Shown here piece after piece: positions 15,019-58,651 of a DNA stretch of 64,000 nucleotides; positions within the stretch are counted from its first letter, which is position 1; the number at the start of each line of letters is the position of its first letter. The stretch is taken from positions 5,828,001-5,892,000 of the forward strand of contig NC_058368.1 in assembly GCF_018350175.1 (NCBI RefSeq). The letters are read 5' to 3'. The notes beneath the pieces were generated by a model. The model made no database searches, was not told the DNA's origin, and worked only from the letters and a program-made list of their open reading frames with translations. Origin of the DNA: Felis catus. Lineage: Eukaryota. Both the position numbers and the translations under genes were made by a program.

Positions 15019-15119
15019 CTATAAGCTCTTACTGGTTTTGATTTTAGTAGCGTCATAAGAACGGATGAGTTCTTCCTGAGTAATCACACCTTGTTCTAGC
15101 TGAGAAAATGCGTACCCAC
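15019..15119 (-). CDS. ATP8A2-like terminal coding exon [32 protein letters not shown]
   Basis: ctttactctttcag|GTGGGTAC; GYAFSQ...QEE.IR.YD.TK is the ATP8A1/ATP8A2 C-terminal signature; TAG at 15019-15021. Confidence 0.93.
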
Positions 15120-18100: not shown

Positions 18101-21100
18101 AACTCATGTGCTCGTGCTGACGTAATTTTAAATGCGTCACTTCGGCTACCGTGTAAGGGTCCCGGGTAGAGGCAGGAGATGGGTCAAGAGGTTGTTGAGG
18201 CAGTGCCGGTGGGTGATGGTGGTCCAGACCCGGGTGCCAACGGGGGTGTGCGTGGCAAGCGGTCGGTCTCTGAGCACAGTGTGACGGCAGAGCCATCCGC
18301 TACGTTAGAGGAATTAAGAACGACTGAAAGGATCGTGGCCCGAACAGTCGGAAGCATGCGGCTGTCTTCAAGCGAAGGCGGCAGACGGGGCCGGCTGGGG
18401 GGGAGAGGAAGCCAGGGGCGGTTTTGGACATCACTGGTGGCCTTGACTGGAGGCGTGTCAGTGGCGTGGTAGGAGTGAAGGCTTACTGGAGCGGGTTCAA
18501 GAGAGACTGGGAGGAGGGGGTCTGGAGACCCCGGGGACGAACGATTTGATCCGGAGCCGTTGCTGCAAAGGAGTGTGACGGAATGGGGCGCACTCTAATG
18601 GGTGACGTGGGGTCCAGAGGAGGTTCTGCTTGGTGAGACCACCTTCTGGAGGCTGGTAGAACGATGTAACAGAGGAGCGTGGGAAAGTGGTGACGTAGAA
18701 GGTAAATGAAGGAGCAGCCGGGGCGAGGCGCTCGGGCGTGCAGGAGCAGACGGAGTCAGAGGCAGGCGCACGGGAGGGAGAGCCAGTCTGTGCAAACAAG
18801 CGGGAAGGCAGAGCACGTGGCAGGTGAGGTGGTGGCGGGAACCCCCGCAGGTTCATTTCTGGTGCGTTTTTCTCAGGGATGGAGAAGTCAAGGCCCTCGG
18901 TTGGGAAAGAGGACGGGAGGGATGTCACCCAAATTTTTAAGACCTCTGCCATCCTTTGTTTTCTTGTCCTCGTTCATTTTTTTTCTTTTTCTTGTTTTTA
19001 CCTTTGGTTCCCTTTCAGCTGCTGTTTCCTAAGTGTCTCTAGGGTGAGGGGAAGGCAAAGTGGTGGGCACAGGACAGGAAGAGGAAGTAATGCGTGTGTG
19101 TGCAAAAGAGAAATAGCAGTCAATCCAGAGACACACAAATCTGTGATATAAAAAATAGACAATAAGGGGCACATGGGTGGCTCGGTCTGATAAGCGTCCA
19201 GCTCTTGGTTTCGGCTCAGGTCATGATCTCTCGGTTCGTGGGATCGAGTCCCACGTCAGGCTCTGTGCTGATGGTGCAGAGTCTGCTTGGGATTCTCTCT
19301 CTCCCTCGCTCTCTGCCCCCACGCAGCTAATGTTCTGTTTCTCTATGTCTCTCTCTCTCTCAAAATAAACAAGCTTAAAAAAATAGACAATAGAATTTTA
19401 AAATCCTACAACTTTCAACAAATACGTTGGTCGGAAAGGAGGGACAGTTAGTCTCCACAAACACCACATGTTCCTTTATTTGTATCGCCTTTTTGTTTGA
19501 CTTGTTCTCAGGATCGTACTCAGCACTCACGTTACCAGACATGAGTCACATGGGACCTAAACATTTCATCTAGGCACTTCTTGGACACATTCCTTTTTGA
19601 AGGAAGGGAAAATGAAATAACTTTTAAAGGTTTTCATGCCCAATGTGGGCTATGTTAACATCACACCCCCAATAAGGGTATGTAAGTTTTCTAAGGGTAT
19701 AAATTATTTGGAGCCAAGTACTACTTTTCCATTTAAAATGGTAGGCTGGGAATCTGTCAGAAGATCTTGCAAACGTGAGGATGTTAGATTTGAGGATGTT
19801 ATCATGGAGTGGGAGACCGGGAATTACTCTTTCAGACCACACTTGCTTTAGGCCAAGAACATTAATTTCATGAATCCAATGGAGCCCTCCTTCTGTGTGA
19901 GAACTACCTTACCTTCTAAAAAATATGTAATACTACAGGTAGTTTCCTTTTTTAAAAAAATTGTGGTAAAATACATGTAACGTAACACTTACCATCTTAA
20001 TGAAGTTTAAGGGTACAATCCAGGGGCAGTAAGTACATTCACAGTGCTGTGGAACCATCACCAGCATCTGTCTACGGACCTCTTTCCACCTTCCCAAACT
20101 GAAACTCCATACCCATTAAACACTGAGTCCCCATTCTCCCATCCCCGGGCCCCTATTAACCCCCAGTCTCCTTTCTGTCTCTATGGGTTTGAGGACTCTA
20201 AGCACCTCATAGCAGTGGGGCCATACGGTGCTTGTCTTTTTGGGTCTGGCTCCTTTCACTTGGCATAATCTCATCGAGAAGCACCTAACGTTGAATTACT
20301 CCTCCTCCTCGTCCGTAGGTGGAGTCTCAGCTTTGCGGCCTACTTTACGGCACCGATACTCACGTGGGGCGCTTCGATCAACAGATTCATCCTGGAAGAC
20401 CACCTTGTGCAGCTGGCTGGACAGAGGCAGTTGGAGGTGTTCTGTCTTCACGCTGTGAGTAAACCAATCATAACCTGGCTTTAGTTCATCGGAAAGTGAA
20501 ACAGAACAAAACAAAACAAGTGACGAGGTAAAAGAAAAGAGTCTTCCTCACGTTTCAGAGGGTGTTCATATAGTTCAACTAAAGTTGAAAATTGATACTA
20601 TCTAGACACTCAACAAAGTGCTTCTTCTAAAATAGGGTTGTGCTTGTGAACGTTTCTTTATTATACGGCTCTCCTAACTGTCCTTCACCGGTAGTTGAAC
20701 TGAACGACCAATGTCTGGTCAGTCTTCTGGCCTCCCAGAGCACCTTAGAGATTTTATAATGTGTATTTTAAAAATCTTTGTCTCAACTTCCTGTTCTAAT
20801 GGCAAAGCCATAACTTACGCTGGGTCAAGACTCTGAACCATGTCTGTCGGGAAGGGTCAACTCTAGCAAAAGAGCTACCTTCTCCAGTTCCCAAGGCTTA
20901 TCGTGACACTACACCAGAAGCCCCAAGTTCAATACTTTCTAAATTCCACAGAGTGGGTAAGCATAGCAGCATAATTAGAGAAGTCCATGGTTTTTTCTTT
21001 TTTTTTTTTTTTTTTCCTCTACAAGCTGAAAGATGGGGTTAAAAAAATACCCAGGTGGCCTAACCTAATCTGCTTTCTCACTCCTAAGATGTCACTAGGC

Positions 21101-30588: not shown

Positions 30589-30632
<44 letters not shown>

Positions 30633-32524
30633 TGGGACTGTGTGTAGGGCACTGGCAGCCACTAAAAGGGTCTTGTCTTTCTGAGTGAGAGAGTGAGAGG
30701 AGAGGTCATAGGAAGGCAGAGAGCAGGGAGTGATATGGTCTGATTTACCCTGCCAAAGCCTCCTCCCTCTGACTGCTATGGGGAAGGCCAGAAGCAGAGA
30801 TACCTGGTAAGAGGCCTCTGCAATAATCCAGGAGAAAGATGATGGAGGCTGGACCTGGTCAAGATGGTGCGGGTTGTGAGTAGTGATCAAATTCTCAGGG
30901 GTTTTTTTTTGTTTGTGTTTTTGTTTTGAAGTAGGAACAGTCAGATTTTCTGACACGATGGGGGTGGGATAGGAGAAAGAGGATGTGAGAATGACTGCAA
31001 GATTTCTGGCCTGAGAAACTGGAAGAATGAAGTTGCCATCCGCTGAAAGGAGGATCTTACGGGAAGCTGGTGTGGCTGGGGGTGTGAAGTTCAAGAAGCC
31101 TGTTGACATGCACTTAATAAACTTGCGGAATCATGACACGTATGGAAGTGCCTGGGAGAGGAAAGGTAGAAAAAGAACAAGGAGATCAGGTTTTTAACAA
31201 AAGTCAGGATAAAGGGAAGAGCCTCACCTCTTTTCAAACGCTGTTGGAAGATGAAGTTCTTGAACCCTGCCTCTTTCCATCTTACGAACTTCTTCTAGTA
31301 ACGTTCCGTTGCAGGTATTTCTAATCCTGTATCGTATGGGAAAGATAAAAAGAACACATGAGCTTTACACGGTGTAAGCAACAATTTCTCCCTCTTGGGT
31401 AGCTGGACATCCCTTGCCTACAGGCTGTACGATGAGATGCGATGCATTGTGCCCAGCCTCCGAGCGAAACCAGAGTCTTGCTTTCCCAGCAGCTACGGGG
31501 CGTTACCAGAGGGGGTGCTGCAGCCGCCCCGAACACTGCCGACTCTCCGTGCAAGTCTGTAGATCTGGGTGTGTGTCTACGTTGCAGGGGCCGTGACTCT
31601 GGACGAGTCAATCTGCATGCATTTTATTTTATTATTATTATTTTTTTTTAATTTTTTTTTAAATTTTTTTTTCAACGTTTTTTATTTATTTTTTGGGACA
31701 GAGAGAGACAGAGCATGAACAGGGGGAGGGGCAGAGAGAGAGGGAGACACAGAATCGGAAACAGGCTCCAGGCTCTGAGCCATCAGCCCAGAGCCTGATG
31801 CGGGGCTCGAACTCACGGACCGCGAGATCGTGACCTGGCTGAAGTCGGACGCTTAACCGACTGTGCCACCCAGGCGCCCCTTAAATTTTTTTTTTAACAT
31901 TTATTTATTTTTGAGACAGAGAGAGACAGAGCATGAACAGGGGAGGGGTAGAGAGAGAGGGAGACACAGAATCTGAAATGGGCTCCAGGCTCTGAGCTGT
32001 CAGCACAGAGCCCGACGCGGGGCTCGAACTCACAGACTGTGAGATCATGACCTGAGCCGAAGTCGGACGCTTAACCGACTGAGCCACCCAGGCGCCCCAA
32101 TCTGCATGCATTTTAGCCAGACAGTTGAAGGTTCAGAGGACTGAGACGTGATTCCGTATGACTTTTTCTACCATGGTCACTAGTTGGGAATCTTGATTCT
32201 CAAGTTTTCAGCTGTGTGCTGCCTCCAACCCTCACTTCGATCAGAGAGACCTAGGACTACCTGTGCCATTCACAGCAGTCGTAAGGGCAGAGTGGATGTG
32301 TCCTGTCAGTGCTTGACCACAGGTGTGGGTTTCTGACTTGAAACCGACAAGACAGTGCTCCCCCTTTCTGTGGCAACTTGTTTTCATTAGGGTCTCTATC
32401 TGTATTCATGCACTCATCATTCATCCACTCCAGTATTAAGTTTCTTTGAGCCACAATTAGATACCAAAGCAAAAATAGACATTGTTTCTACTTTCTCTTT
32501 TTTAAATTTTTTTAACATTTGTTT

Positions 32525-32575
<51 letters not shown>

Positions 32576-38408: not shown

Positions 38409-38454
<46 letters not shown>

Positions 38455-41400
38455 ACACAGAAAGAGAAAAAGAACCTAAAATGTTTGGGGGGGGGATTTG
38501 AGAAAGATTCACTCCTCTGCTTTGGGGTCTATAAATAATTATATTTGCCCTGATGTATAGAGGAATTAAGGAAGAATTGGACATTAAAAAGCAAAATTAG
38601 TATTATCCCTTCTAGAGTATTTCTTTCTCTAACTTCTTAGTTTGAAATTTATGATGTTTATTTACTTTTTAATGTTTATTTTTGAGAGAGACAGAGAGAC
38701 TGTGAGCAGGGGAGGGGCAGACAGAGAGGGAGACACAGAATCCGAAGCAGGCTCCAGGCTCTGAGCTGTCAGCACAGAGCCCGATATGGGTCTCAACACC
38801 ACGGACCGGACCGTGAGATCAGGACCTGAGTCGAAGTCAGGTGCTCAACTGACTGAGCCACTCAGGCTCCCCTATGATGTTGTAAAGCCCTGTTGTTCAT
38901 GTTACACATTATGTACGATGATCGTGTACAAGTTATTTCCGATTTTTAAAGCTTGTAATTTCATGGGTTCTTTATCTGTAACATTAGGGATTTCAGGGAT
39001 TTCTAACACCTTAGTTAAAAGCTTTTTTTCCTGTTGGATTCAGTAAGAAAAAAAAGGGGGAGGGGAGTTTCTGTCATCTAATACCTAAATATTCTGGGGG
39101 AACTATATTTAATAGATTCTTATTTCCCATGTTTTTAAAAAGTGAAGAATGTCTTTCTAATTTGAACATCTTTCTCCTGTTTCTTATTTTGTTATTAGTT
39201 TTTAATCTGTGATCCTCTGGTATCAGGTTTTGGTTCCTCTAAAATAGATAGAAGTCCCACTTCTAAAGAGTAAGTGGATGACCTTTCAGGAAAGATCATG
39301 AACTAGGTAGTTCACTACCAAATTTACCTCTCATGTATTTTGATAACATCTTTTTCCCCCCCAAATTGGTTGCTGGGAAATCTACGGTGGTAAAAGGCAG
39401 AAGACATTTACTTCTAAAAGTCCCATGACTGTTAATATTCATAAAGTGGCAAATTTTCAAATTCAACTTAATTTGAAGACCACATAATTGGAAAAGAAGA
39501 ATTAACCATGACAGTATATTTTTTTGGTTACTACCTTAATTTTCAACTTACGATGTCCATAGTAGATTTAGAATCAGGCACACAATAGGGACTATGAAGA
39601 AACCCAGCCAGAAGTATGGACAAACCAGGACCACACTGACCTGCAAATAAATAGAAATAAAGAGTATTTACATAGGAATCTTTTAGTTTGTCAGTATTGA
39701 GTACCACGTGTAACTTTCAGTTTCCCTTCTCCTCCACAAAAACCTCGAGATGCAGGTGTGGATGCAGTCATAGGAGTCTAGAACTACTCAATCAGTGTAA
39801 GTACATAAAACCTAAATATAGTATCAGCTAACTTAATTCAATAGTGTATTCTATAAACAGTCAACCAAGTAAATATTTTGATCAAATAAGTTTTATCTCA
39901 GGAATGCAAGCGTGGTTCAACCTTATGTTACCTAGCAATACAACTTTACTTAACTTCTAGACATTGTGTGTAAGACAATTGTGCCATTCTAGTCCCCTGT
40001 GAAAAATCACTCTTCTCTCTGCCTGATCAGAGAGAATCAGGACTGTACTGATTTAAGACTGGGTAAGGCTCTGTACTGTATATATTTTTAATTTTCTGTA
40101 TATGCTGATGTTTCAACATCCAAACAAAAAAACCTTTCTGTGTGGAGACTGCCCCTCCCAGAACTAGTCAATTCTTACAGATGGTAAGATCTCAGCGGAG
40201 AGGATGCCTTTGATCTGCAAACTAATCCACAGCCTCTCTCCTCTATCTGGCCCATATACCCCAGGAGGCATTATTCCTTTGCCATAATCATTCCAGAACC
40301 AGGTAACAGGCAACTAGAAACCACCCCTATAGTCCAAAGCCTGCAAAAAATCATTTAAACTAGCCATTCCTGGGCTGTTCACCCTGCTCTGCCTTGCCTT
40401 TCCCATGGAAGCCCCAGTAAAGGCAAGGCCTAAGCACTCCTCAGCTCCTGTGTTCCTCCTCCTGACCACCCTGGTCTCTTTCCCATGTGGCATGCTGTGA
40501 TTTATCTTTAGGACCTGTGGGAATAATACATGTTATTAAAATGGCTATAGTAAGTCCTTACCAGTAAGTAATTACTTTAAATGTAAACGGATTAAATTCT
40601 CCAATCAAAAGACATAGAGTGACTGGATAAATAAAAAAGATCCAAGAATATGCCACTGATAGGAGACTCACGTCAGCTTTCAGGCCACATAGGCAAAAGT
40701 AAGGGGATTGAAAAAAATATTACAAGTAAATGGTAACCAAAAGAGAGCAGGAGTGGCTATATTAATATTAGATAAAATAAACATTCAGGCCAAATCAGTC
40801 ATAAGAGACAAAGAAGGTCACTATATAGTATTATGGAGGTCAATTTATTAAGAGGATATGAGAATTATAAGTTTGTTTGCACCTGACATTGGAGCACCTA
40901 AATATTTAAACCATAAACAAAACTGAAGGGGGAAATTCACAGCAATATAATAATAGGGAATTCAATTCCCCACTTTCAACAATGGAAAGATCATTTGGAC
41001 AGAAAATCGATAAGGAAACCGCTGTCCTCAATAACACAATAGACAAAATGGACCTTATAGACATATTCAGAACATTCCATCCAACAGCACCAGAATACAC
41101 ATTCTTTTCCAGTGCACATGGAACATTCTCCAGGATAGATTACATGTTGGGCCACAAAGCAAGCCTTAACAAATTTAAGAAGATTGAAATAATATCAAGT
41201 ATTTTTTTCCCTGATCATAATTATATTTAATTAGAAATCAGTACTAGGAGGAAAACTGGATAAAATCACAAATAATGTGGAAATTAAACAACACACTACT
41301 GAATAATCCAACGGGTCAAAGAAATCAAAAGGGAAACCACTCATGCATCTCTGGAATAAATCCTACTTGATTGTGATGAATGATTTTTTTAATGCATAGT

Positions 41401-47400: not shown

Positions 47401-50400
47401 TTATTGTTTGGCTCTCTCAGTGGAGAACAGCTTTCTTCTAGACGTATGCATGAAAGGTGTATTGGGGAAATTATTTTTAAAGGAACTGAGGAACAAGTAA
47501 GAAAAAAATATTTCATTTAATATCCAAACAACAAACTGCATATTCCTTCACCTTAACACTCAACTTATGCTTAAAACATTCAGAAAAGTACAAGACTTAA
47601 AATGATAAATTTTAGTTTGTTTTTGTGTATGATGTAAGAAAGTGGTCCAGTTGCATTCTTTTATATCTAGCTGCCCAGTTTTCTCAACATCATTTGTTGA
47701 AGAGAATGTCTTTTTCCTATTGCATGTTCTTGAAGATTAATTGGTCACATAATAATGATGGGTTTATTTCTGGGTTCTCTATTCTGTTCCTTTGATCTAT
47801 GTGTCTGTTTTTGTGTCAGCACCACACTGTTTTGTTTACTACAGATTTGTAATATATCTTGAAATATGGGATTGTGATACCTCTAGTTTCGTTCTTTTTT
47901 CTCAAGATTGCGTTAGCTATTTGGTATCTTTTGTAGTCCCACTCAAATTTAAGGATTATTTGTTCTAGTTCTGTGAAAATGCTGTTGGTATTTTGATAGG
48001 GATTGCACTAAACGTGTAGATTGCTTTGGGTAGTATAGACATTTTAATGATATTTATTCTCCCAATCGATGAGCATGGAATACCTTCCCATTTGTTTGTC
48101 ATCTTCAGTTTCTTTCATCAATGTTTTATAGTTTTCAGAGTACAGATCTGTCACCTCCTTGGTTAGGTTTATTCCTAGGTATCTTCTTGGTTTTGGTGCA
48201 GTTGTAAATGGATTGTTTTCTCAATTTCTCTTTCTCCTACTTCATTATTAACGTATAGAAATGCAGTGGATTTCTGTATATTGATTTTGTGTCCTGAGAC
48301 CTTATTGAATTCATTATAAGATCCAGTAGTTTGTTTGTTTGTTTGTTTGTTTGTTTGTTTGTTTGTTTGTTTTGGTGGTGTCTTCAGTGTTTTCTACATA
48401 CAGTATTATGTCATCTGCAAATGGTGACAGTTTTCCTTCCTCCTAACCAATTTGGGTGCCTTTTATCTCTTTTTCTTGTCTGATTGCTGTGGCTAGGACT
48501 TCTAGTACTATGTTGAAAAGAAGTGGTGAGAGTAGATATCCTTTTGTTCCTGATCTTAGGGTAAAAGTTCTCAGGTTTTCATTAAAATTCTCAATTTTAA
48601 TACAGAATTTATGACAATATAAATATTCTCTCTTAAAATGGGAAAAAAAACAGCCTATCACCATTCCCTTACTAGTGCTTATTCCACCACATTCATAAAT
48701 TAAGTCTCATTTAAATATTTTATGATTTTAACAGCTTTATCAAGGCATAGTTTGACTTAAAATACACTGAACATATTTAAAGTGAACAATTTGATATGTT
48801 TGGCATACATTATGTCCATGAGCTCATTAACACAAGCAAGAATATAACTAGCACCCCCAGAAGTCTCTTTATCCTTCAGTGTAAGCACTCCTTCCTGCCC
48901 TCGTGTGCCATTTACCACCCACCACCCATGTCTCCAGTTTACTATTGATCTGCTTTCTGTCACTATAAATTTGTTGGAAATTTCTATAAACAGATCCATA
49001 CAGTTTGTAAACTTCTTGGCCTGGTTTATTTCTCTCAACATAATTATTTTGAGAGCCATCCAAGTTGTTGTATATGTCAACAGTTTATTCATTTTTATTG
49101 CTGAATAATAATTCAGTTGTATGGTGATTTGTCTTTTTATTCACCAGTCAATGCACTTTTGCGCTGTTCCCAGTTTGGGCTGTTGCAAACAAGGCAGCCT
49201 TGAATATTTATATTCAAGTCTTTTTGTGGACGTATGCTTTCATTTCTTTTGGGTAAATATCAGGGAGTGGAATGACAGGTTCTTATGGTATATGTATGTT
49301 ATACTTTTTTTTCCCCTTTTTTTTTTAACTTAAAGTTTAGTTAATTAACATACAGTGCCATATTGGTTCCAGGAGTAGAATTCAGTGATTTGTCACTTAC
49401 ATACAACACCCAGCACTCATCACAACAAGTGCCCCCCCAATACTCATCACCCATGTAGCCCCATCTCCCCTCCACCTCCCTCCATCAACCCATGATTTGT
49501 TCTATATCGTTAAGACTCTCTTGTGGTTTGTTTCCCTCTCTTCTCTTATCCCCTTCTTCCCATATGCTCATCTATATGAAATCATATGGTATTTGTCTTT
49601 CTCTGATTGACCTAATTCACTTAGGATAATACATTCTGGCTCCATCAACATCATGGCAAATGGCAAGATTTCATTCTTTTTGATGGCTGAGTAATATTCC
49701 ATTGTGTACATATACCACATCTTCTTTATCCATTAATTGGTTGATGGACGTTTGGGGTCTCTCCATAGTTTGGCTATTGTTGATAATGCTGCTAAAACAT
49801 TGGGCATTATAGCATATTAAATACACGCTATAACACGTATGTTAAGACCTTTACGAAACTGCCAAACTGCTTTCCAAAGCATTTTACATTTTTTTATTAA
49901 AAAAATTTATTTTAAACATTTCTTTATTTTTGAAAGGCAGAGAGAGACACAGAACACCAGCGGGGGAGGGGCAGAGAGAGAAGGAGACACGGAATCTGAA
50001 GCAGGCTCCAGGTTCTGAGCTGTCAGCACAGAGCCGGAGAAAGCGTTTTACATTCTTATACGCAGCATATGAGGGTGGCAGTTGCTTTGCATCCTCAGGG
50101 ACACTTGGTGTTGACATTTTTATAGTTGTAGCCATTCTCATAGTTGTGTGCTGCTGTCTCAGTTTAGTTTTAATCTGTATTTATCTCATAACTAATGATG
50201 TTAAGCATCTTTTCTTTTCCTTTGTTATTCATATGTATTCTTTGGTGAAGTATCTATTTGAATATTTTGACCATTGTATAATTTGGTCATTTATCTTTAT
50301 TATGTCCTTTCTTCTCAGTTTGGGTTTCATTTGTCCTTTTTCTAGTTTCTTAACATGGAAGCTAGAGCTGATATTTGAGAACCTTCTTTTTTACAGACAT

Positions 50401-53400
50401 GATTATGGTGCTAAAAAGTTCCCTCTAAGTAATGCATCAGCTACATCCTATAAATTTTGACATGTCATGTTTTCATTTTCAGAGTTCATAATGCTCAGTT
50501 TCCTCTTTGACATATAAATGAAGTGTGTCTGTTGCCCTTAACTCCTGGATTGACTCTTAAACAGCGAATGTGCGGGGTGAGACTTTCAGAGACCCAGCAG
50601 AAAAGAGATGGCAGGTTGAAAAACCAAGCAAAGACGTGGCACCTACCCAGTGCTGGGGAGACAGAGATTGTAGTTTAAGCCTTGCCAAATGGGAATGCCC
50701 TTGGTAAACATTCGGGGTCTTCCTGAGATCCCAGAAAAGCCATGGCCTAGATGTAAATGCCTGAAATTAGAAGAAAGTACTACCTACACCATGGAAATAA
50801 TAACTACCATGGCCTCAAGGGAAAACAAAACTTCAAACAACCTTGACCCTATCAAAGTCTTTCCCTGATACTGTGCTTCTCACTTCTCTATGGCTGCCTC
50901 TTCTTGAGGGTTTTGTCCCTCAAGTCCAGGCATTTCAGCAGCCTAGGACTCTGAATTCTACCTCCCAGTAGAATCACTCCCAGTAAGATCACTGCGTTAA
51001 CTTTGGGCTTCTTTTCTTGCACTACAAGCTGAGAAATGCTCATAGGGAAGGAGCCAGGGTAAAGAAGGAAAGGATGGAAAAGGCTTCCCTTTTTTTCAAG
51101 AACCATTCCCTCGAGTATTACTCTGTTCGTTTCTAGCCAGTGTCTTCAAACAATTCTTATATCTTGTTTAGTTTTCAGAGTTGTTTTTGTCAGGTTCATC
51201 CAATCCTGGCCACTTGGTCATGGCTAAAACAAGAAGTCTCTTAAAATTCTTATTTCCTGGGAAGTGGGCTGCCATGATCCAGGGGTACAAGGGTCATCTC
51301 CCATTTCCACAGAGAAAGACAGGGAGTGTGAAGGATGACTGTGTGGTAGACAGACCACTGGGATTGAACCGGACAACTCTGGACCTGTGTTTCTCCATGT
51401 GGCAAGTGAATAACTTTGGACCAAGGCTACCTCTAGTCCTAACATCATAATTCTGTGGTCCATTTTGTAAGCACCATAGGCCTATTCCCCATAATAGGTA
51501 TAGACAAAGTAGAATTTATAAATATGTAAACAATTGTAAAAGTCTAAAAATTATGTCACCTCTGAGGTTTAACATAAGTGAAATAAAAGTTTCTAATATT
51601 TAGAAGCTGGAGCTTCTGGAGGTCCAAGGAATGTCCATTCTGGTTAAACATTTCAAATAAAAATAGTTTCTTAGTTGCCATATATACCTTATAAAAAGTA
51701 CCTAATAATTTAAGCATATAGCACATTAACATGAAAAATATAACTACAATATTAGCTATTTTAGATGATTGTGATTATACCTTTTATCAGTTAGTTACAA
51801 AAGATAACAATTTTGGAAACCATAGCTAAGTAATTTTGAAGTTTGAAGTAATGCGATTTCGATAAAACAATATTATAACTAAAACTTCAACCAGAATTTC
51901 GTTGGGTCACCAGCTATTTCTAATTGTATTGATTTTATCTTTTCTTTCCAAATTACTTTGAAAGTAGGTAGCAGACTGTTGTTATTAAAAAAAAAAATTT
52001 GTTTTAATGTTTATTTATTTTTTTTTTAATTTTTTTTTTCAACGTTTATTTATTTTTGGGACAGAGAGAGACAGAGCATGAACGGGGGAGGGGCAGAGAG
52101 AAAGGGAGACACAGAATCGGAAACAGGCTCCAGGCTCCGAGCCATCAGCCCAGAGCCCGACGCGGGGCTCGAACCCACGAACCGTGAGATTGTGACCTGG
52201 CTGAAGTCGGACGCTTAACTGACTGTGCCACCCAGGCGCCCCAATGTTTATTTATTTTTGAGACAGAGAGAGACAGAGCATGAACAGGGGAGGGGCAGAG
52301 AGAGAGGGAGACACAGAATCTGAAACAGGATCCAGCCTGTGAGCTGTCAGCACAGAGCCCGACGCGGGGCTCAAACTCACGGACCACGAGATCATGACCT
52401 GAGCCGAAGTCGGACGCTTAACCGACCGAGCCACCCAGGCACCCCACAGACTGTTATTATTTTTTTTTTAATTTTTTTTTTCAACGTTTATTTATTTTTG
52501 GGACAGAGAGAGACAGAGCATGAACGGGGGAGGGGCAGAGAGAGAGGGAGACACAGAATCGGAAACAGGCTCCAGGCTCCGAGCCATCAGCCCAGAGCCC
52601 GACGCGGGGCTCGAACTCACGGACCATGAGATCATGACCTGAGCCAAAGTCGGACGCTTAACCGACCGAGCCACCCAGGCACCCCACAGACTGTTATTAT
52701 TGACAAACATAAGTTTTCATGAGGAATGTAAAGCATACTCACCACTGACAGTTAATAGAACTGACCTGTCCTGTCATTTCAGGAGCAACAGGAATGGTGG
52801 GCCATAAGAAAGAGTAAATTGCAAAAAACACCAGCCATATAATTATGCTTCCCCAAATTGCCAGATGATTAAACTGCAGAAAGAACAATATTACAGAAAG
52901 CCTTCAGCCTTTTCCATTTAAAAGGAAGAAATTATTTAACTCTATCAACTGTCCGGGCCATATGTTCTCACATGAAGAAAATGACAGTCTTTTGATTTCT
53001 TGACACTTGAGCTTTCCTTTCTAACATCCTTCTCAGAATGAAGTTTGAACAGAAATCATTGAGAGGGGTAAAAATTCGACCTTACCATATCTGTCCTGCA
53101 TGAATAATTCTGGGAAAATGGCAGAAGTTGTGATTCTTTGACTGAAACTGGAGGGTTTTCGGTGCATATAAAGTCCCTGTGTCAGTCAGATCAAGGTAAT
53201 CTTGGGTGAAGGATCACTGTCTGTGCCTGGGGCTAGAAACTGCCAGATTCTTAATGGTAAATGGTAAGAAGGCAGGTCCTTCTGTTGATCTGATCTGTTG
53301 CCTTGTATGATTTGTGTTAGCAGAGGAATTGCAATGACAACGAGTAGGAGACCTGTGCTCTAAACCTGGTCGTACTGGGTACCTCAGAGTTATCATCTAT

Positions 53401-56400
53401 GCATAAATCAGTGATTCGCTAGATGAGATAATTTCTTTTTTTTCAATATATGAAATTTATTGTCATATTGGTTTCCATACAACACCCAGTGCTCATCCCA
53501 AAAGATGCCCTCTTCAATGCCCATCACCCACCCTCCCCTCCCTCCCACCCCCCATCCACCCTCAGTTTGTTAGATGAGATAATTTCTTAAGGGTCCAAGT
53601 GCTGTCATCCTAGTAGGTACTTCTCATTGCTTAATCCTATCTGAACAACAAAAATATGGAGGGAAAAACCCCAGTCTGCTGTTTATTAGAGTATTTATTG
53701 TTACTTGTTTATGAGTCACTTTCAAAGGCAGTTTTTTACACTCTTTGGAAATCATCTCTTACTCAAAGGATTTCTCTCTTGTGGTCACGTAGGAGATGAT
53801 GGAGAAGAGAATCCGCTCAAGAGTGTGAGCTTTAAACTCTTCTAACACTTGAGTGCATTTCCATGTAACCATTCCCTTAGAGTTGGCATAAACATGAGTT
53901 GCAATGGGAGGCATTCTGCGTGGCTTGGATCCCAGGTGGGTTTCTGTCGGGACCATCCCCTGGGGGACGGCAGTAAGCCACCATTGCTGCTCTAAGATAT
54001 ATTCTGTTATCTCTGCCCTGGCTCCTTCTCTGTACCTAAATAGTGGCTTGCAGAATCTTCTTCCCCAGTGAAGAAGCACAAGCTCCCTCTTGGACTGTCC
54101 ACACAGGGCAGAGCAGCCTCTGACCAAACGGGAGAACTGGTCCCTTTTCTTTGCTGCCCTAATCCCCAGGCTCCTTCCTGGCCAACATGTGAGCCGGAGG
54201 GCAGGAGCCTGGTAGCTTGTAGGCCAGAAGAGACCTCTGTGTTTTGTTAAGTCTGCTTTGGCCTTGAAATGATGCCGTATTTGTAAATGAGATTCACCGT
54301 ATGTGGATAGTGTAAGGTCATCGTGGATCTAAGAAACATTCATACTGCAGGGAATTTAATAACAATTAAAAGGAGGAATAGAAAATAATTGCTTGTTTAT
54401 GTTACATTAATGCAGTATAGTACCACATTTACAAGTGGTGTGCCTTATGAATTGCTAATAAAATAATTTTTGTTGGGCACACTTCAGTCCCACCTTTATG
54501 TTGATGTTCAGTTGGGGACAGTAGCAGTGAGAACTGTGTTGATTACACTGGAGCAGAAACTCATGATATGCTACATAATCTTAGCTCTCCAAAAGTGACA
54601 GGCCGGTTAAAATTCATTTTCTGTCATAAACTTTTGAGTGCAGCTTGGAAAACAACTTATTTATAGGTGTATATGTACCTACATATAGATTCACTTAAAT
54701 TACTGATCAGTTTATAAAAACATTCTACGTATCAGAAGTTCCACTTTTAACAATATCCTAGGGAAATTATTACTCATGTCTGTAAATACACAAGTACATC
54801 TGTGTTCATAACAGTACTGATTATATATCATTTACAGTAATGAAGTTAAAAAACAATTATTCTAAAAATATAAATAATAAGTCTCCAAGTGATAAAATAT
54901 TATACAGTCATTAAATGAGGTATAAATGTTAAAGATATGGAAAAATGTTAAAGATCTAGTGTCTAGTGAAAAAAAGCAAATCATAAACTGTTAGGTACAT
55001 TAGAATTCTATTTTTATGAAAAATAAATAAAACAAAGACTGAAAAAATAGAAACCAAAATGTCCATGTCATTGACATTGAAACGTATAAGCAATTTTTAT
55101 TTCTTTCCTTTCTGTATTCGCTAAATTTTCTATTATAGTTCTGTACTTGGATAATAATAATTAAGGATCTCAATTAATATCATGATAAATTGAATCTATT
55201 TAAGATATAAGGCAGGGAAATGAATTTTTAAAAACATTAGATGGCTAACATGCCATCATCAGCTTAAATCATCATTTCAATATGCAAAACAAAAGAAGGT
55301 AAAATATGAAGAACAGAACAAGATGCTTATTTTCTAAAGTTTAAAAAGTAAATCAACATGCAAACAACTATACTGGATTGAGGAACTACCCTGAAGAATA
55401 CTCACTTTATTCCAAGATAGTGTGTCTAAACCAGCTTTCAGACAAACAGTAACAACTACATACTGTGCAAAGAGATGGAAAGGGGAAATAGATTGGGAAA
55501 ATGTATTAAAATTTCCATTAGGGTCCACATCACCCCACTCCCTCCCTGACTCCCCCTACCCCCGACCCCCCTTCTCCATGTCCAGTGAACTCTGGTGCCA
55601 TAGTTGCTAATTGCTTTACTAGCTTTTAATTAAGGAGAGAATGTATGGCCTCTCAATAAGTGCTTCATATTTAGAAGCCCTTCAACATATGACAAAAGCC
55701 ATGCTTCTATCATGAGCTTATATTTACATTCTTTATAAATGGAATGGAAGATTTCTTTCTGATTAAAAATCCAAATGCCATCGATAAAAAGCACAGTTGA
55801 ATGAGGGAGATTGAAATTGGCTTATTCTTGGCCTTTTGCGTTTGGACATATACATACTTTAGAAATAGCTCATCAGGCATCTGGGGCTTTTGATTGGGAT
55901 TACAGTAAATCTATAAATCAATTTGACTTCCTATAAATCAAGCTGACTTCCTTTATAGTATTGAGTATTCCAATTAACGAGCATGGTATATTTCTCCATT
56001 TAGACGTTCTTAATGTTTCCAATCAAGTCTTATAATTTTCCTCAGAAGTCATGGATGTCATTTGTTAGATTTATTCATGTTTTTCCTATTTTTGATACAA
56101 TGGTAAAATAGTATATAAATTTTTTATTTTCCAAATATTTATTGTTGGTATATTGAAATAGAATTTCTTATTTTTTAAATATTGGCCAATATCCAGCAAG
56201 CTGCCAGCCTCTCTTAGTAACTGTAATATTTTATCTGTAGAATTTTTTTGTGTTTTCTGCGTGCACACTTGTGTCGTCTATGGTTGAAAACCAGCTTTTC
56301 CCCTTTCAGCGTCTTGTGCTCCTCCCCTTATCTTACTCCTCCACGATGGCGAAGAAAGGTGGGAAAACCAAGCAACTTTCTTACTTTTCATCTATTCTTT

Positions 56401-58651
56401 TTTATTTATTTATTTATTTTTTTACATTTTTTTTTCAACGTTTATTTATTTTTGGGACAGAGAGAGACAGAGCATGAACGGGGGAGGGGCAGAGAGAGAG
56501 GGAGACACAGAATCGGAAACAGGCTCCAGGCTCCGAGCCATCAGCCCAGAGCCTGACGCGGGGCTCGAACTCACGGACCGCGAGATCGTGACCTGGCCGA
56601 AGTCGGACGCTTAACCGACTGCGCCACCCAGGCGCCCCTACTTTTCATCTATTCTTAATCTCAAAAAAAAAAAAAAAAAAGCTTTAAGTGTTCCATTAAG
56701 TATGATTTTGTCACAGTGTGGGTTCCTGTGCAGCAACAGACGTGTGATACGCTGGGTGTTTAAAGTCCTGCTTTTGAAGCAGACTTTAAGTCCATTCTTC
56801 TCGCTCTGGACTCAGCATTGCAGCTAGCCTGCATCGTCCCATCTAAGCTTCTCCAAAACCTTAAAGGTGGCAAGGCACTGGCCCCTACCTACCACTCCAA
56901 GTTCGTCTTTGCCATTATCCTGAGCCTCCCTTGCCCGCCACACAGTTTGCACTGTGCTTTAGTCCCACGGGCCTTCTTCAATTCCCTGAGAGCATCAAGG
57001 CAGACTCTACTTCCCTGGAGGTTTACTCCATTCCTCCAGCTGCTCTGTTTTGGCTTAGTGCTTCCTCCAACTCACTGGCTCTGGGAACAGCATGTCAGGA
57101 AAGCTGGATCAGTGATGTCACCATGCTGACCCCGCCAACTCTCCCATTTCTCCCCTGACATCTCATTTTGAGGTTTTTAGCATTGGTGCAGTCCCCTCTA
57201 CTTCTTTGGTTGCTGTGCTGAGTTGATTTTGCCGTAGTTTGTTGTTGCTGGTTTTACTGTATATATTCATTTTTTGTCTTAGGAGGTTGAGATTCCTTTA
57301 TATCAATTTACTCGGTCATCTTAACAAGGAATATCTTTTATGTTTGTATGCATGCATGTCTATATGTGAGGAGGTCTGAAAAGAAGGAAATTTACTATAT
57401 GCGTATGTCCACATAAATAAGAAAATACTACCTAACCTCATTTGATGTTTAGGAAGATATAACACAGAGTTAAAAGCCACACCCATTATCATGAAGTAAT
57501 AACGACAACCAGCTAAAGTGAAAAGAGGCAATATGCCAATAAATTGCTTCTTTCGTAGAAGAAAACATGAGGAAAAACATGGTTTGTGGTTTTGTTGTTC
57601 CAACATGTGTTGTTAAATGAAAAGAAAAACAGACATGCAGAGGAATATGTTTCCACTTGCAGACCAAAAGAATAACATACAACATTGTGAATAAGACACA
57701 AAACTCAGAAGCCATAAAGAAAAATATCAATACATTTAACTACATAAAACCAACATGCAGAATACATGCATGACAAAAATGGCTTGAAAAATAATATGCA
57801 AAACTGGAAATATATTTATGTAACAAATATGGGGGAAAATTAACATCCTTAACACATAAATATCTACTACTACTAATAAAAAGACCAACAACCCTATAGG
57901 ACAATTGGTAAAGTAATTCAACAAACTTTTATACACACACATACAAAAGAAACGAAAGGGTTTTTTTTACTTCATGCAAATACACTATCCTCAAAGCAAA
58001 AACTGCAATAGAATACCATTTTACCTACTAGATCAAAAAGTGTGGTAAGACTTACCGCCACTGGGGGCTTGGGGAAACTGATATTCTCATGACTAACTGT
58101 GTACATCCTATTTGGGGGATAATTTAGTAATAATTTCCAAGATTCACAGTACTCTCTGATCCAGCCAGTTACACTTCTAGAAATTTATCCTACAGATCTA
58201 CCTACCCATGGGCATAAAGAATAGACTCTGCAACACTGTTGATAATGGCAAAGGACCCAGAACAATCTTTCCACTAATAGGAGACTAGTTAAATACCATC
58301 ACCCAGGTACGCTGTGTAGTGAAAAAACAAGGTATAAAAGAGCTTCTCCCTACTTGTACAAAAGAAGAGAGGATAATATACATTAGGTACATGTATTTCA
58401 CATTCCTACAAATTACATATGTGTGTGTATATATATACACACACAACACACATGCATATGCAACCACTGTTCCTCCTTGGAAAAAGTATGGGAGCATGAG
58501 GGAGATTTAAAACTTATGGAATTCTTATAATGCTTGAACTTTTCAATTAAAAACTAGAAACAGCGATTGAATCATATGGGTAATCTTACCGTATAAATGA
58601 AATTTCCAAGAAACAAATAGTCTGTAGTGTAACCCCCTTGTAAGACCATAT
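15019..58651 (-). CDS. 3' part (last 7 coding exons, 5'-partial) of an ATP8A2-like P4-ATPase / phospholipid-transporting ATPase IB-like gene
   Basis: Manual splicing gives (D)[200 protein letters not shown]. All introns are GT-AG, phases 0,0,0,2,2,1 are consistent, and the peptide is colinear with the ATP8A2 C-terminus as remembered. Symbol withheld because the divergence indicates a paralog. Confidence 0.93.
15405..15660. mobile_element. MER5A-like hAT remnant(s), unusually CpG-rich
   Basis: cagtgcttctca...gtgcaccagaat...ggccccac...cagag...ctg.tt.ca...gtctg...gggg.tcgagaa follows the MER5A layout. Confidence 0.55.
17165..17480. mobile_element. MIR fragments (two, opposite orientations)
   Basis: gctcagggacggtgactaatatgcctagagtcccacagc and ctttggagtgagacagactgagg...ttccttctctgcaaagtgagga. 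Confidence 0.6.
17628..18900 (-). mobile_element. L2 element, 3' end and body
   Basis: cattcattcaa...ctactatgt 3'-tail signature, atggagcttaccttctag, caaaggccctgagg and purine-rich L2 antisense pattern. Confidence 0.75.
19167..19383 (+). mobile_element. SINEC
   Basis: Full body; TSD aaaaaatagacaata. Confidence 0.92.
19945..20270 (-). mobile_element. L1MB-like 3' end
   Basis: ttgtggtaaaatac...taccatcttaa...cccaaactgaaactccatacccattaaac. Confidence 0.8.
20364..20452 (-). CDS. ATP8A2-like penultimate exon, 89 nt, [29 protein letters not shown](R)
   Basis: tttactcacag|CGTGAAG...GCCCCAC|gtgagt; phase 2/1 exactly bridges the flanking exons and the length fits the ATP8A2 segment before GYAFS, though sequence similarity is low. 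Confidence 0.82.
21620..29660 (-). mobile_element. nested cluster of L1 fragments of several ages
   Basis: ORF2 remnants ([54 protein letters not shown]), an internal 3' end at about 23920 and an ORF1 piece near 29100-29445. Confidence 0.85.
28070..28546 (-). mobile_element. non-autonomous Tigger1 derivative (Tigger1a-like)
   Basis: TIRs taggcatacctc.../...aagatatgccta, TA on the left; both Tigger1 termini joined with an internal deletion. Confidence 0.85.
30592..30631. repeat. (TG)n microsatellite, about 20 units
   Basis: Direct reading. Confidence 0.95.
30632..31110 (-). mobile_element. L2 fragment
   Basis: Translation [19 protein letters not shown] resembles the L2/CR1 ORF2 motif ARNLGVILDSSLS. 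Confidence 0.75.
31228..31326 (-). CDS. ATP8A2-like exon, 99 nt, [32 protein letters not shown](S)
   Basis: ctttcccatacgatacag|GATTAGA...AAAGAG|gtgagg; TC..TLLEEV motif of ATP8A2; phase 2/2 fits both neighbours. Confidence 0.9.
31622..32098 (-). mobile_element. SINEC_Fc nested in the A-tail of another SINEC_Fc
   Basis: Outer TSD aatctgcatgcatttta flanks both; inner TSD ttaaattttttttt flanks the left copy. Confidence 0.92.
32497..32744 (-). mobile_element. SINEC_Fc with expanded (AG)n
   Basis: Body plus long GA tract; imperfect TSD gtttct(a/g)ctttc. Confidence 0.92.
33394..33604 (+). mobile_element. SINEC
   Basis: ggggtgcctgggtggctcag head; TSD aaagaattaa(g/c)aagc. Confidence 0.9.
35736..35940 (-). 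mobile_element. SINEC
   Basis: TSD ttgtaccaagatttt. Confidence 0.9.
36169..36352 (+). mobile_element. SINEC
   Basis: TSD aaatgccatctc. Confidence 0.88.
37251..37431 (-). mobile_element. SINEC
   Basis: Imperfect TSD tgaaatg..(c/t)atttta. Confidence 0.88.
38374..38459. repeat. compound (CG)n/(CA)n microsatellite
   Basis: gcgcgcgcgcacacacacgcgcacacacacgcgcgcgcgcgc(ac)n. Confidence 0.95.
38659..38872 (-). mobile_element. SINEC_Fc
   Basis: TSD tatgatgtt. Confidence 0.9.
39552..39640 (-). CDS. ATP8A2-like exon, 89 nt, [29 protein letters not shown](S) (TM10 region)
   Basis: ttctatttatttgcag|GTCAGT...ACATC|gtaagt; FWLG..VP..CLI...W pattern of ATP8A TM10. Confidence 0.93.
40070..40530 (+). mobile_element. 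MER74-like ERVL LTR, 3'-truncated
   Basis: ctgtatatgctgatgtttcaacatc...gactgcccctcccag..ctagtcaattct...ttcaccctgc...cctttccc.tggaa. Confidence 0.7.
40535..41335 (+). mobile_element. L1 ORF2 endonuclease region; resumes at about 46155-46395
   Basis: [53 protein letters not shown]. Confidence 0.9.
41336..46150 (+). mobile_element. L1 with inverted 5' segment (41336-42414, minus) and sense ORF2/3' UTR (42415-46150), interrupted at about 43885-45240
   Basis: Strand switch at positions adjacent in L1 ORF2; 3' UTR and A-rich tail at about 46115-46160. Confidence 0.85.
43885..45240 (+). mobile_element. carnivore L1 5' UTR segment (GC/CpG-rich)
   Basis: Starts gggaggggccaggatgctggagcagcgtggaag (L1 5' terminus-like) and ends in a T-rich tract; no ORF1 follows. 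Confidence 0.75.
46396..46985. mobile_element. old L1 5' fragment (+, to about 46760) followed by L1 ORF2 3' fragment (-)
   Basis: ggtcaatttcagctctt...agtagcagct motif, then gtggctgcaccagtttacattcccaccaacagtg. Confidence 0.6.
47610..48590 (-). mobile_element. L1 ORF2 fragment containing (GTTT)n at about 48330-48372
   Basis: [25 protein letters not shown]. Confidence 0.9.
48725..51200 (-). mobile_element. old L1 fragments with a nested carnivore L1 3' end (about 49310-49810) and a 5'-truncated SINEC (about 49888-50036)
   Basis: L1 3' UTR motifs; SINE TSD aaagc(a/g)ttttacatt. Confidence 0.75.
51997..52686 (-). mobile_element. cluster of three SINEC_Fc elements
   Basis: Three bodies ending at about 52242, 52446 and 52686; cagactgtt(g/a)ttatt present three times. 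Confidence 0.93.
52766..52873 (-). CDS. ATP8A2-like exon, 108 nt, [36 protein letters not shown] (TM9 region)
   Basis: gttctttctgcag|TTTAAT...GGACAG|gtcagt; matches ATP8A2 [36 protein letters not shown]. Confidence 0.95.
53438..53570 (-). mobile_element. severely 5'-truncated young felid L1 (3' tip)
   Basis: aatatatgaaatttattgtca.attggtttccatacaacacccag end; perfect 18-bp TSD tagatgagataatttctt. Confidence 0.9.
55406..55462 (-). CDS. ATP8A2-like exon, 57 nt, [19 protein letters not shown] (TM8 region)
   Basis: tctcttttgcacag|TATGTAG...AATAAA|gtgagt; near-identical to ATP8A2 [19 protein letters not shown]; visible inside ORF 55334..55528. Confidence 0.95.
56398..56638 (-). mobile_element. 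young SINEC_Fc within a decayed L1 fragment
   Basis: TSD tacttttcatctattctt. Confidence 0.93.
57640..58555 (+). mobile_element. old L1ME-like ORF2 3' end / 3' UTR
   Basis: aactggaaatatattt...ataccattttacctactagat...cacttctagaaatttatcctacag. Confidence 0.6.
58590..58651 (-). CDS. ATP8A2-like exon, 62 nt, (D)[20 protein letters not shown]
   Basis: ctttttcatttttcag|ATATGGTC...TATACG|gtaaga; matches ATP8A2 [21 protein letters not shown]. Confidence 0.93.

What the first reader, a model, noticed from the sequence alone, without database searches (positions are those of the whole stretch)
15019..58651. Intact, diverged, intron-containing ATP8A2-like flippase paralog hidden in repeat-dense DNA
Seen: seven small exons over 43.6 kb splice with canonical sites into one open frame, with no stops or frameshifts despite heavy L1/SINE invasion of every intron. 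Known: GYAFSQ and CLKAGL..W..F.H.A.WGS are ATP8A-class P4-ATPase (aminophospholipid flippase, CDC50-dependent) signatures, and mammalian ATP8A1/ATP8A2 orthologs are highly conserved. Against human ATP8A2 from memory I count roughly half identity overall (about 15/19 and 25/36 in the TM8/TM9 exons, 13/29 in TM10, very low in the proximal tail). Inference: this is a third ATP8A-type gene made by genomic duplication (not a retrocopy), still under selection in felids and probably functionally uncharacterised. Automated annotation may already list it as an ATPase IB-like LOC gene.
Basis: partly seen in the sequence, partly recalled or inferred. Interest (0 to 1): 0.85.

Follow-up and report, generated by a model that had tools for sequence, protein, structure and literature searches.

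The report
Unstudied placental duplicate of flippase ATP8A2
These are the last seven exons of an intact cat gene for a lipid-flipping pump that arose by duplication of ATP8A2 in early placental mammals; databases already list it, but no paper found here describes it.

Summary
Seven minus-strand exons between 15019 and 58651, all with AG/GT boundaries, splice into one open frame. That frame equals residues 908-1107 of the Felis catus RefSeq model "phospholipid-transporting ATPase IB-like isoform X3" letter for letter. They encode TM8-TM10 and the C-terminal GYAFSQ tail of a P4-ATPase.

The gene is not ATP8A2, not a retrocopy and not hidden, because automated pipelines already annotate it in dozens of mammals. 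Trees place 31 "IB-like" proteins from all four placental superorders in one clade that is sister to placental ATP8A2. Marsupial, monotreme and other vertebrate ATP8A2 fall outside (SH-aLRT 100; AU test rejects an older origin, p 7e-5).

The copy changes about 3-4 times faster than ATP8A2, yet it keeps DGET, PISL, DKTGT, TGDK and GDGAND. Cat-tiger differences avoid conserved sites (2/510 against 24/629), so it is under purifying selection in felids.

Six name variants gave no paper. No junction reads were obtained for cat.

Verdict: an ordinary, functional-looking, uncharacterised paralogue. Moderate interest.

The parts
58590..58651 (-). Coding exon, residues 907-927 of cat isoform X3 (..[21 protein letters not shown]). 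It covers the luminal loop and the first half of TM8, and begins in phase with one base carried over from an upstream exon outside the window.
   Evidence: tblastn at 100%; AG/GT boundaries and exact splice match; hydrophobic core centred at residue 928.
55406..55462 (-). Coding exon, residues 928-946 ([19 protein letters not shown]), the second half of TM8. It is skipped in the jaguar isoform X2 model.
   Evidence: 78% mean identity to ATP8A2; the skip is seen.
52766..52873 (-). Coding exon, residues 947-982 (FNHLAIWGS...), TM9.
   Evidence: hydrophobic core at 956-967.
39552..39640 (-). Coding exon, residues 983-1012, TM10; ends in phase 2.
   Evidence: hydrophobic core at 990-1006.
31228..31326 (-). 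Coding exon, residues 1013-1045, the proximal cytosolic tail ([13 protein letters not shown]...). Poorly conserved.
   Evidence: 49% identity among orthologues and 28% to ATP8A2.
20364..20452 (-). Coding exon, residues 1046-1075, the tail linker and the least conserved part.
   Evidence: 37% identity among orthologues and 22% to ATP8A2.
15019..15119 (-). Last coding exon, residues 1076-1107, with the GYAFSQ autoregulatory motif and the TAG stop at 15019-15021.
   Evidence: matches residues 1121-1150 of PDB 6k7g chain A.
14738..15018 (-). Probable 3' UTR, running to the first ATTAAA at 14738-14743, 275 nt after the stop. This is inferred and not shown.
   Evidence: 20 public runs hold at least 0.77 of the sampled words of 14700-15119; none was laid.

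Best explanation
The window holds the 3' third (by genomic span) of a real protein-coding gene, which RefSeq calls 'phospholipid-transporting ATPase IB-like'. It is a DNA-level duplicate of ATP8A2 made in the stem lineage of placental mammals. The seven exons encode TM8, TM9, TM10 and the cytosolic C-terminal tail.

The protein most likely works as a class-1a P4-ATPase. That is an ATP-driven pump that is phosphorylated on the DKTGT aspartate and dephosphorylated through DGET. It moves aminophospholipid (phosphatidylserine or phosphatidylethanolamine type) from the outer or luminal leaflet to the cytosolic leaflet along a TM1-2/TM4/TM5 path. It probably pairs with a CDC50 subunit, and its GYAFSQ tail probably regulates the nucleotide-binding domain.

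Shown here: the gene structure, identity with the RefSeq model, the family, the date of the duplication, the faster rate, retention of the motifs, and purifying selection. Inferred: the substrate, the CDC50 partner, tail autoregulation and the tissue of expression.
For: Gene structure. The spliced exons equal P0007 residues 908-1107 exactly.

Family. P0007 scores 1392.8 bits against PDB 6k7g chain A, a P4-ATPase, and DGET, PISL, DKTGT, TGDKQETA and GDGANDV are visible in that alignment. Pfam finds PhoLip_ATPase_N, PhoLip_ATPase_C, Cation_ATPase and E1-E2_ATPase above their cut-offs.

Intactness in cat. Leopard and tiger have a full-length 1144-aa isoform X1. Cat isoforms X3-X7 jointly cover all 1144 positions at about 97.7% identity.

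Phylogeny. The IB-like clade holds 31 of 54 rows with SH-aLRT 100. [IB-like + placental ATP8A2] holds 23 of 32 rows with SH-aLRT 100 under LG+C20 rooted on Polypterus. An AU test rejects keeping placental and marsupial ATP8A2 together without the IB-like clade (delta lnL 43.1, p 6.6e-5).

Motifs in the 31 IB-like proteins: DGET 31, TGDK 31, PISL 30, DKTGT 30, KGAD 30, GDGAND 30, FYKN 30, LQQI 28, GY[AS]FS 24.

Constraint. 482 of 1114 columns are invariant across 18 orthologues. Per-site variability correlates with that of ATP8A2 (Spearman 0.37, p 3e-37). Cat-tiger differences fall at 2/510 conserved columns against 24/629 variable ones (p 7e-5), and cat-hyaena at 5/510 against 113/626 (p 3e-25).

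Splicing in a relative. A 162-aa protein from a 987-nt assembled contig is 92.6% identical to vicuna IB-like and spans the equivalents of four of these exon junctions.
Against: No read-level evidence of splicing or expression was obtained for cat, because one search returned no data. Of the 20 runs that hold the 3' end, only 1 is on record as RNA, and none was laid.

Each of the cat isoforms seen (X3-X7) omits a block of residues relative to tiger X1, and X3 omits the TM5 exon. I did not see a cat X1 record: only 15 of the 42 cluster members were listed.

The puma and Iriomote-cat models read the TM10 exon in another frame. The hyaena model diverges after GYAFSQ.

The copy evolves fast: 70-75% identity between species pairs in which ATP8A2 is 89-93% identical. 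The two proximal-tail exons are only 37-49% conserved among orthologues.

GY[AS]FS is absent from 7 of 31 models. Truncated models may account for that, but I did not check it.

No dN/dS could be computed, because no coding DNA of other species was available.
Confidence: 0.72

Rival explanations
1. The pump is functional but has taken on a new role. After the duplication the copy changed substrate, regulation or location, for example a role in a tissue specific to placental mammals or in reproduction, and no longer acts as a second ATP8A2.
For: The stem leading to the IB-like clade is very long: 0.52 changes per site, against 0.11 for the branch below [IB-like + placental ATP8A2]. The proximal-tail exons share only 22-28% identity with ATP8A2, and TM10 only 44%. 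The copy has been retained across four superorders for the whole placental radiation.
Against: The TM1 LQQI, TM4 PISL and TM5 FYKN stretches, which by recall line the lipid path in ATP8A1 and ATP8A2, are kept in 28-30 of 31 proteins. The GYAFSQ tail is kept in cat. Nothing here measures substrate or tissue.
Confidence: 0.2
2. It is an unprocessed pseudogene, or a gene decaying in felids. It is still transcribed and still open by chance or recent history, but it makes no working pump.
For: The annotated cat isoforms seen each lack a block, including membrane segments. Puma and Iriomote-cat models have odd frames. The hyaena C-terminus diverges. The evolutionary rate is raised. There is no cat junction evidence.
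Against: There is no stop or frameshift in the seven exons, nor in any of the 1144 positions covered by cat isoforms. Cat-tiger and cat-hyaena differences avoid conserved columns (p 7e-5 and 3e-25), which neutral drift would not produce. All catalytic motifs are present in the cat protein.
Confidence: 0.07
3. It is simply the cat orthologue of ATP8A2 (or of ATP8A1).
For: The same family and the same motifs. Some databases name members 'ATPase IB' without the '-like', for example the rabbit, elephant and camel entries.
Against: Tiger has a separate ATP8A2 (P0107), 65% identical to the cat protein. It falls in the ATP8A2 clade, while the cat protein falls in the 31-member IB-like clade. Pika and Arctic ground squirrel also have both genes.
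Confidence: 0.01

Closest known systems
ATP8A2 (phospholipid-transporting ATPase IB), class-1a P4-ATPase
   Same: It is the sister gene by phylogeny. Domain order and catalytic motifs are the same, CLKAGL in TM8 and the GYAFSQ tail included.
   Different: Overall identity is about 65%, and about 49% in the window-encoded part. It changes 3-4 times faster. The proximal tail is unrelated in sequence. Among the 120 best hits the only haplorhine entries were ATP8A2, and there were no murid entries at all. A 2025 review counts no such gene in human or mouse (PMC11775268, passages seen).
ATP8A1 as solved in PDB 6k7g-6k7n (by recall human ATP8A1 with CDC50A; the tool names it only 'phospholipid-transporting ATPase')
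   Same: It is the best solved relative at 1392.8 bits and aligns over nearly the whole length, the last exon included.
   Different: It is a more distant paralogue. No ATP8A1 was placed in my trees.
Mouse Atp8b5 (FetA)
   Same: It is a precedent for a mammalian P4-ATPase that is absent from humans and so little studied (PMC11775268, passages seen).
   Different: It belongs to class 1b, not 1a, and is a separate gene. This is an analogy only.
Human ATP8A2P1
   Same: It is an ATP8A2-derived locus about 68 kb long, so it has introns, as this gene does (table row in PMC3974860).
   Different: It is listed on human chromosome 10, not beside ATP8A2. I could not test whether it is the remnant of this paralogue or a separate primate duplication.

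Membership tests
P4-ATPase (lipid flippase), Pfam PhoLip_ATPase_N / PhoLip_ATPase_C | N- and C-terminal P4-specific domains above the curated cut-offs | tested here: met
   P0007 scores PF16212 190.2 bits (cut-off 28.3) and PF16209 83.5 bits (cut-off 29). Leopard X1 scores PF16212 275.6 bits. The window encodes the last part of PF16212.
P4-ATPase | P-type phosphorylation motif DKTGT, plus TGDK and GDGAND in the P domain | tested here: met
   All are seen in the cat protein alignment. DKTGT is in 30, TGDK in 31 and GDGAND in 30 of 31 IB-like proteins. These motifs lie upstream of the window.
P4-ATPase | DGET in the A domain and PISL in TM4 | tested here: met
   for cat. DGET is in 31 of 31 and PISL in 30 of 31. 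Both lie upstream of the window.
P4-ATPase | Ten membrane segments, the last three before a cytosolic tail | tested here: met
   Hydrophobic cores are centred at residues 890, 928, 956-967 and 990-1006 of P0007. The last three fall in window exons 1-4. This is hydropathy only; no topology predictor was run.
ATP8 subgroup (class 1) | C-terminal [G/A][F/Y]AFS autoregulatory motif | tested here: met
   GYAFSQ is at 15100-15117. The motif definition comes from PMC11775268. It is present in 24 of 31 IB-like proteins.
ATP8A2 orthologue | Groups with ATP8A2 of the same species set, to the exclusion of other paralogues | tested here: not met
   It falls in a separate 31-row clade, SH-aLRT 100. Tiger, pika and ground squirrel each have both genes.
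Processed retrocopy | No introns and a poly-A tract | tested here: not met
   There are six introns of 2532-13125 bp with AG/GT boundaries.
Unprocessed pseudogene | Stops, frameshifts or lost splice sites, and neutral substitution | tested here: not met
   No disruption in the window or in the cat isoforms. Substitutions avoid conserved sites. Codon-level dN/dS was not computed.
P4-ATPase | CDC50 partner and ATP-dependent lipid transport | not testable with these tools
   This needs co-expression and flippase or ATPase assays.

The most novel reading that the evidence does not exclude
Placental mammals ancestrally had a sixteenth P4-ATPase, a third ATP8A-type pump. It was created beside ATP8A2 in the placental stem and remodelled in a burst, especially in TM10 and the regulatory tail. 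It was then kept for about 100 million years (by recall) in carnivores, ungulates, rabbits, many rodents, lemurs and lorises, xenarthrans and afrotherians. It was lost in the lineages that supply the standard models, anthropoid primates and murid rodents, which is why it has no name and no literature. It would then be a flippase with its own regulation and tissue role. It could also modify ATP8A2-deficiency phenotypes in dogs, cats and livestock.
Probability: 0.3. Interest if true: 0.6.

Novelty: new member of a known kind. Interest (0 to 1): 0.35.

Why it matters
The field counts 14 human P4-ATPases plus mouse Atp8b5 (PMC11775268, passages seen). An additional, apparently functional ATP8A-type flippase in most placental orders would change that count for cat, dog, pig, sheep, cattle and rabbit.

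It matters in three practical ways:
- Animal models of ATP8A2 disease may have a possible back-up gene.
- Proteomic or GWAS hits labelled 'ATPase IB-like' in livestock and pets would have a defined identity.
- It is a natural experiment in how a flippase's C-terminal regulatory tail can be rewritten while the GYAFS motif is kept.

It is not a new kind of system, and automated annotation already records it.

Tried and rejected
Read laying. 

Sequencing runs. 20 of the 24 listed rows, from 11 studies, hold at least 0.77 of the sampled words of 14700-15119. Only one, a gut metatranscriptome, is on record as RNA; the rest are guessed. Several are too small (46-1035 million letters) to be whole-genome DNA. 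None was laid, so I count this as a hint only.

Own genome. No genome is held for this window, so upstream exons, the position of ATP8A2 and the neighbouring genes could not be read.

Earlier scan notes. There were none.

Fused models as synteny clues. The stoat model is named 'RNF6 isoform X2', yet Pfam finds only P4-ATPase domains in it. The golden-mole model has a RasGEF_N domain at 1180-1269. The atlas gave only generic 'N-terminal Ras-GEF domain' clusters at 0.92, so no neighbour gene could be named.

Human ATP8A2P1. It is listed on chromosome 10. Its relation to this gene was not tested.

Scorpion outgroup. It left the attachment point of the IB-like clade unresolved and broke vertebrate ATP8A2 into an implausible arrangement. 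I dropped it and rooted on Polypterus.

Long intronic open frames. Those at 30384-31130, 53759-54328, 38078-38596 and 49846-50460 have no Pfam match. They are microsatellite-bearing or unremarkable sequence, and I rejected them as exons.

Spliced fragments. The last protein search, restricted to shorter proteins and residues 907-1107, found no cat-identical spliced fragment among 51 hits.

Literature. 'ATP8A3' and 'ATPase IB-like', 'ATP8A2-like' and 'ATP8A2L' each gave 0 papers. 'ATP8A2 + ATP8B5 + paralog' gave 1 paper, a review. 'ATP8A2, gene duplication, P4-ATPase, eutherian' (at least 3 of the 4 terms) gave 7 papers; from the search listing none appears to be about this duplicate. Supplementary tables were not searched.
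Full report
WHAT IS THERE

I read the open frames and flanking DNA and mapped a full-length protein back with tblastn. This gives seven exons: 58590-58651, 55406-55462, 52766-52873, 39552-39640, 31228-31326, 20364-20452 and 15019-15119.

Every acceptor is AG and every internal donor is GT. The introns measure 3127, 2532, 13125, 8225, 10775 and 5244 bp. The 605 nt read as 200 codons plus a terminal TAG. The translation is identical to residues 908-1107 of P0007, which NCBI names 'phospholipid-transporting ATPase IB-like isoform X3 [Felis catus]'. The window is therefore cat or a very close relative. The jaguar protein already differs at several of these positions.

Hydropathy puts three hydrophobic cores in exons 1-4, centred at residues 928, 956-967 and 990-1006. 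One more lies upstream at 890. No further exon of this gene was found at 58652-64000 or at 1-15018.

Against orang-utan ATP8A2 I count 15/19 in the TM8 exon and 24/36 in the TM9 exon (by eye, from the alignment). Mean identity to 8 ATP8A2 proteins is 57, 78, 67, 44, 28, 22 and 57% for exons 1-7. My length-weighted mean is about 49%, which matches 'roughly half'.

The repeat claim is partly right. Sensitive self-comparison marks 33% of the window as dispersed repeat. It finds 20 blocks of about 200 bp that recur 8 or more times. Five of these carry tRNA-like heads by ARAGORN, as expected of tRNA-derived carnivore SINEs (that name is recalled). L1-like sequence occurs in 5 of 6 introns, and intron 2 shows none. 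L1 ORF1 domains pass Pfam's cut-off at 8670-9083. A reverse-transcriptase match at 5917-6465 falls below the cut-off. No exon overlaps a repeat.

WHAT FAMILY

The last exon alone matches residues 1121-1150 of PDB 6k7g chain A (E 1e-4). The whole cat protein matches that chain at 1392.8 bits. Next come yeast Drs2p, ATP8B1, Dnf1/2, ATP11C and others, 20 distinct solved sequences at E up to 1e-50. DGET, PISL, DKTGT, TGDKQETA and GDGANDV are all visible in that alignment. Pfam finds PhoLip_ATPase_N, Cation_ATPase, E1-E2_ATPase and PhoLip_ATPase_C above their cut-offs. It is a P4-ATPase of the ATP8A type.

IS THE CAT GENE WHOLE?

Isoform X3 lacks 37 residues that form TM5. The other cat isoforms each lack a different block: X4 lacks 877-917, X5 lacks 1-84, X6 lacks 450-552 and X7 lacks 34-153, in tiger X1 numbering. 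Together the listed cat isoforms cover all 1144 residues of tiger isoform X1 at about 97.7% identity. Leopard and tiger have the full 1144-aa X1.

So every coding exon is intact in cat. I did not see a cat X1 record, because only 15 of the 42 cluster members were listed.

NOT ATP8A2, AND NOT FELID-SPECIFIC

A search with the whole protein scored 7951 proteins at E up to 1e-50 and listed the best 120. At 65-98% identity come proteins mostly named 'IB-like'. They are from Carnivora, Artiodactyla, Eulipotyphla, Lagomorpha, six rodent genera, two strepsirrhine primates, an anteater and three afrotherians. At about 60-65% come proteins named ATP8A2/IB, from tiger, orang-utan, marmoset, whales, bats, marsupials, platypus, birds, reptiles, amphibians and a bichir.

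I built two trees from subsets chosen one per species, leaving out isoforms and most bird and frog rows: 54 of the 127 proteins then held, and later 32.

- In the 54-row LG+G4 tree, 31 rows form an IB-like clade with SH-aLRT 100 and a stem of 0.33. Its inner branching follows Xenarthra, Afrotheria, Euarchontoglires and Laurasiatheria. A distant scorpion outgroup left the clade's attachment point open.
- In the 32-row tree, under LG+C20 and rooted on Polypterus, the IB-like clade plus placental ATP8A2 form a clade of 23 rows with SH-aLRT 100. Marsupial, platypus, sauropsid and amphibian ATP8A2 lie outside it. The IB-like stem is 0.52.

An AU test rejects the best tree that holds placental and marsupial ATP8A2 together without the IB-like clade (delta lnL 43.1, p 6.6e-5). 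I named that group after seeing the tree, and the test shares the model's pull between long branches.

The reading is a single duplication of ATP8A2 in the placental stem.

LINKAGE

For tiger, pika and Arctic ground squirrel, the IB-like and ATP8A2 proteins report the same longest-contig length: 238,220,823, 8,472,308 and 226,668,729 bp. So the two genes very probably share a chromosome, and in pika they lie within 8.5 Mb of each other.

The stoat model is filed under 'RNF6 isoform X2'. By recall RNF6 lies next to ATP8A2 on human 13q12, which would fit a local duplication. I could not verify this, because no genome is held.

SELECTION

- The copy is fast. Identity between the same species pairs is 75.2, 71.3 and 69.9% for IB-like against 92.6, 89.1 and 92.0% for ATP8A2. 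The ATP8A2 figures are lowered somewhat by isoform differences.
- It is not neutral. 482 of 1114 columns are invariant in 18 orthologues, and per-site variability tracks that of ATP8A2 (Spearman 0.37, p 3e-37).
- The catalytic and lipid-path motifs are present in 28-31 of 31 proteins, and GY[AS]FS in 24 of 31. Some of the misses may be gaps in gene models, which I did not check.
- Within Feliformia I defined conserved columns from 16 non-feliform orthologues only. Cat-tiger differences hit 2 of 510 conserved against 24 of 629 variable columns (p 7e-5). Cat-hyaena differences hit 5 of 510 against 113 of 626 (p 3e-25).

This is what purifying selection in the cat lineage predicts, and what neutral decay does not.

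Within the window, conservation among orthologues falls from 90, 86, 78 and 66% in the membrane exons to 49 and 37% in the two proximal-tail exons. It rises again to 60% in the GYAFSQ exon. The linker is free to change and the terminal motif is not.

EXPRESSION

This is the weak point. Of the 24 listed runs, 20 (from 11 studies) hold at least 0.77 of the sampled words of the last exon plus 3' UTR. Several are far too small to be genome sequencing, but only one is recorded as RNA. My single lay returned no data.

Indirect support comes from a relative. A 162-aa protein predicted from a 987-nt assembled contig is 92.6% identical to vicuna IB-like. It runs without interruption across the equivalents of exon junctions 3/4, 4/5, 5/6 and 6/7. 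The orthologue is therefore spliced this way in a camelid-like animal. No cat-identical fragment was among the 51 hits.

HOW IT MOST LIKELY WORKS

By homology it is an ATP-driven aminophospholipid flippase. The steps are phosphorylation at DKTGT, dephosphorylation by DGET coupled to lipid entry along TM1-2, TM4 (PISL) and TM5 (FYKN), a CDC50 partner, and a C-terminal tail whose GYAFS motif docks on the nucleotide-binding domain. That regulatory role is described for ATP8A1, ATP8A2, ATP8B1 and Drs2p in PMC11775268 (passages seen).

The motifs are shown here. The substrate, the partner and the autoregulation are inferred. The rewritten linker between TM10 and GYAFSQ suggests that whatever releases the tail differs from ATP8A2.

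KNOWN OR NEW

The gene is annotated by RefSeq and TrEMBL pipelines in dozens of species. No paper in the searchable library uses 'ATP8A3', 'ATPase IB-like', 'ATP8A2-like' or 'ATP8A2L'. The 2025 review of the family lists 14 human genes plus mouse Atp8b5 and no third ATP8A in the passages I saw. Two broader searches gave no paper on this duplicate, judged from the search listings. Supplementary tables were not searched.

Human ATP8A2P1 is listed on chromosome 10 over about 68 kb (PMC3974860, one table row). Two other papers mention it only as an RNA-level regulator. Its relation to this gene is open.

Among the 120 best hits, the haplorhine, cetacean and bat entries were all ATP8A2, and there were no murid or perissodactyl entries. 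That hints at repeated loss but shows only that no such protein is annotated there.

VERDICT

It is a genuine, intact, selectively constrained but uncharacterised placental paralogue of ATP8A2. It is a new member of a known kind, already in the databases, and of moderate interest.

Noticed in passing
window 5917-9083 (minus strand): An L1 remnant lies downstream of the gene. ORF1 domains (Transposase_22 and its dsRBD-like domain) pass Pfam's cut-offs at 8670-9083. There is a sub-threshold reverse-transcriptase match at 5917-6465. The strongly negative AT skew at 4001-12000 fits a long antisense-oriented element.
   Followed up: partly
window 39552-39640, and 42208-42414, 36551-36637, 31417-31611: The puma (P0014) and Iriomote-cat (P0005) RefSeq models read the TM10 exon in a different frame. 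The puma model also adds three extra 'exons' that match intronic sequence of this window at 86-100%. These look like gene-model artefacts or species-specific frame problems. I did not resolve which.
   Followed up: partly
P0025 (striped hyaena IB-like), last exon equivalent: The hyaena model diverges from all the other IB-like orthologues aligned that reach this point, a few residues after GYAFSQ, and ends early. This could be a frameshift in the last exon of that species or in its assembly.
   Followed up: no
P0148 (protein from a 987-nt assembled contig): This camelid-like IB-like transcript has GSAFSQ where vicuna and cat have GYAFSQ. That is a change in the otherwise conserved regulatory motif.
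   Followed up: no
P0062 (golden mole model) residues 1180-1269; P0032 (stoat model): Both are fused gene models. The golden-mole model carries a RasGEF_N domain after the flippase, and the atlas gives only generic names for it. The stoat model is filed under RNF6, yet it holds only flippase domains. Both may point to neighbouring genes.
   Followed up: partly
window 52874-55405 (intron 2): This is the only intron with no detectable dispersed repeat by self-comparison. It holds a 189-codon same-strand open frame at 53759-54328 with no Pfam match and unremarkable composition.
   Followed up: partly
window 30387-31130 and 38081-38596 (minus strand): These long intronic open frames (248 and 172 codons) contain dinucleotide microsatellites, read as runs of TH and CV. 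They have no family match.
   Followed up: yes
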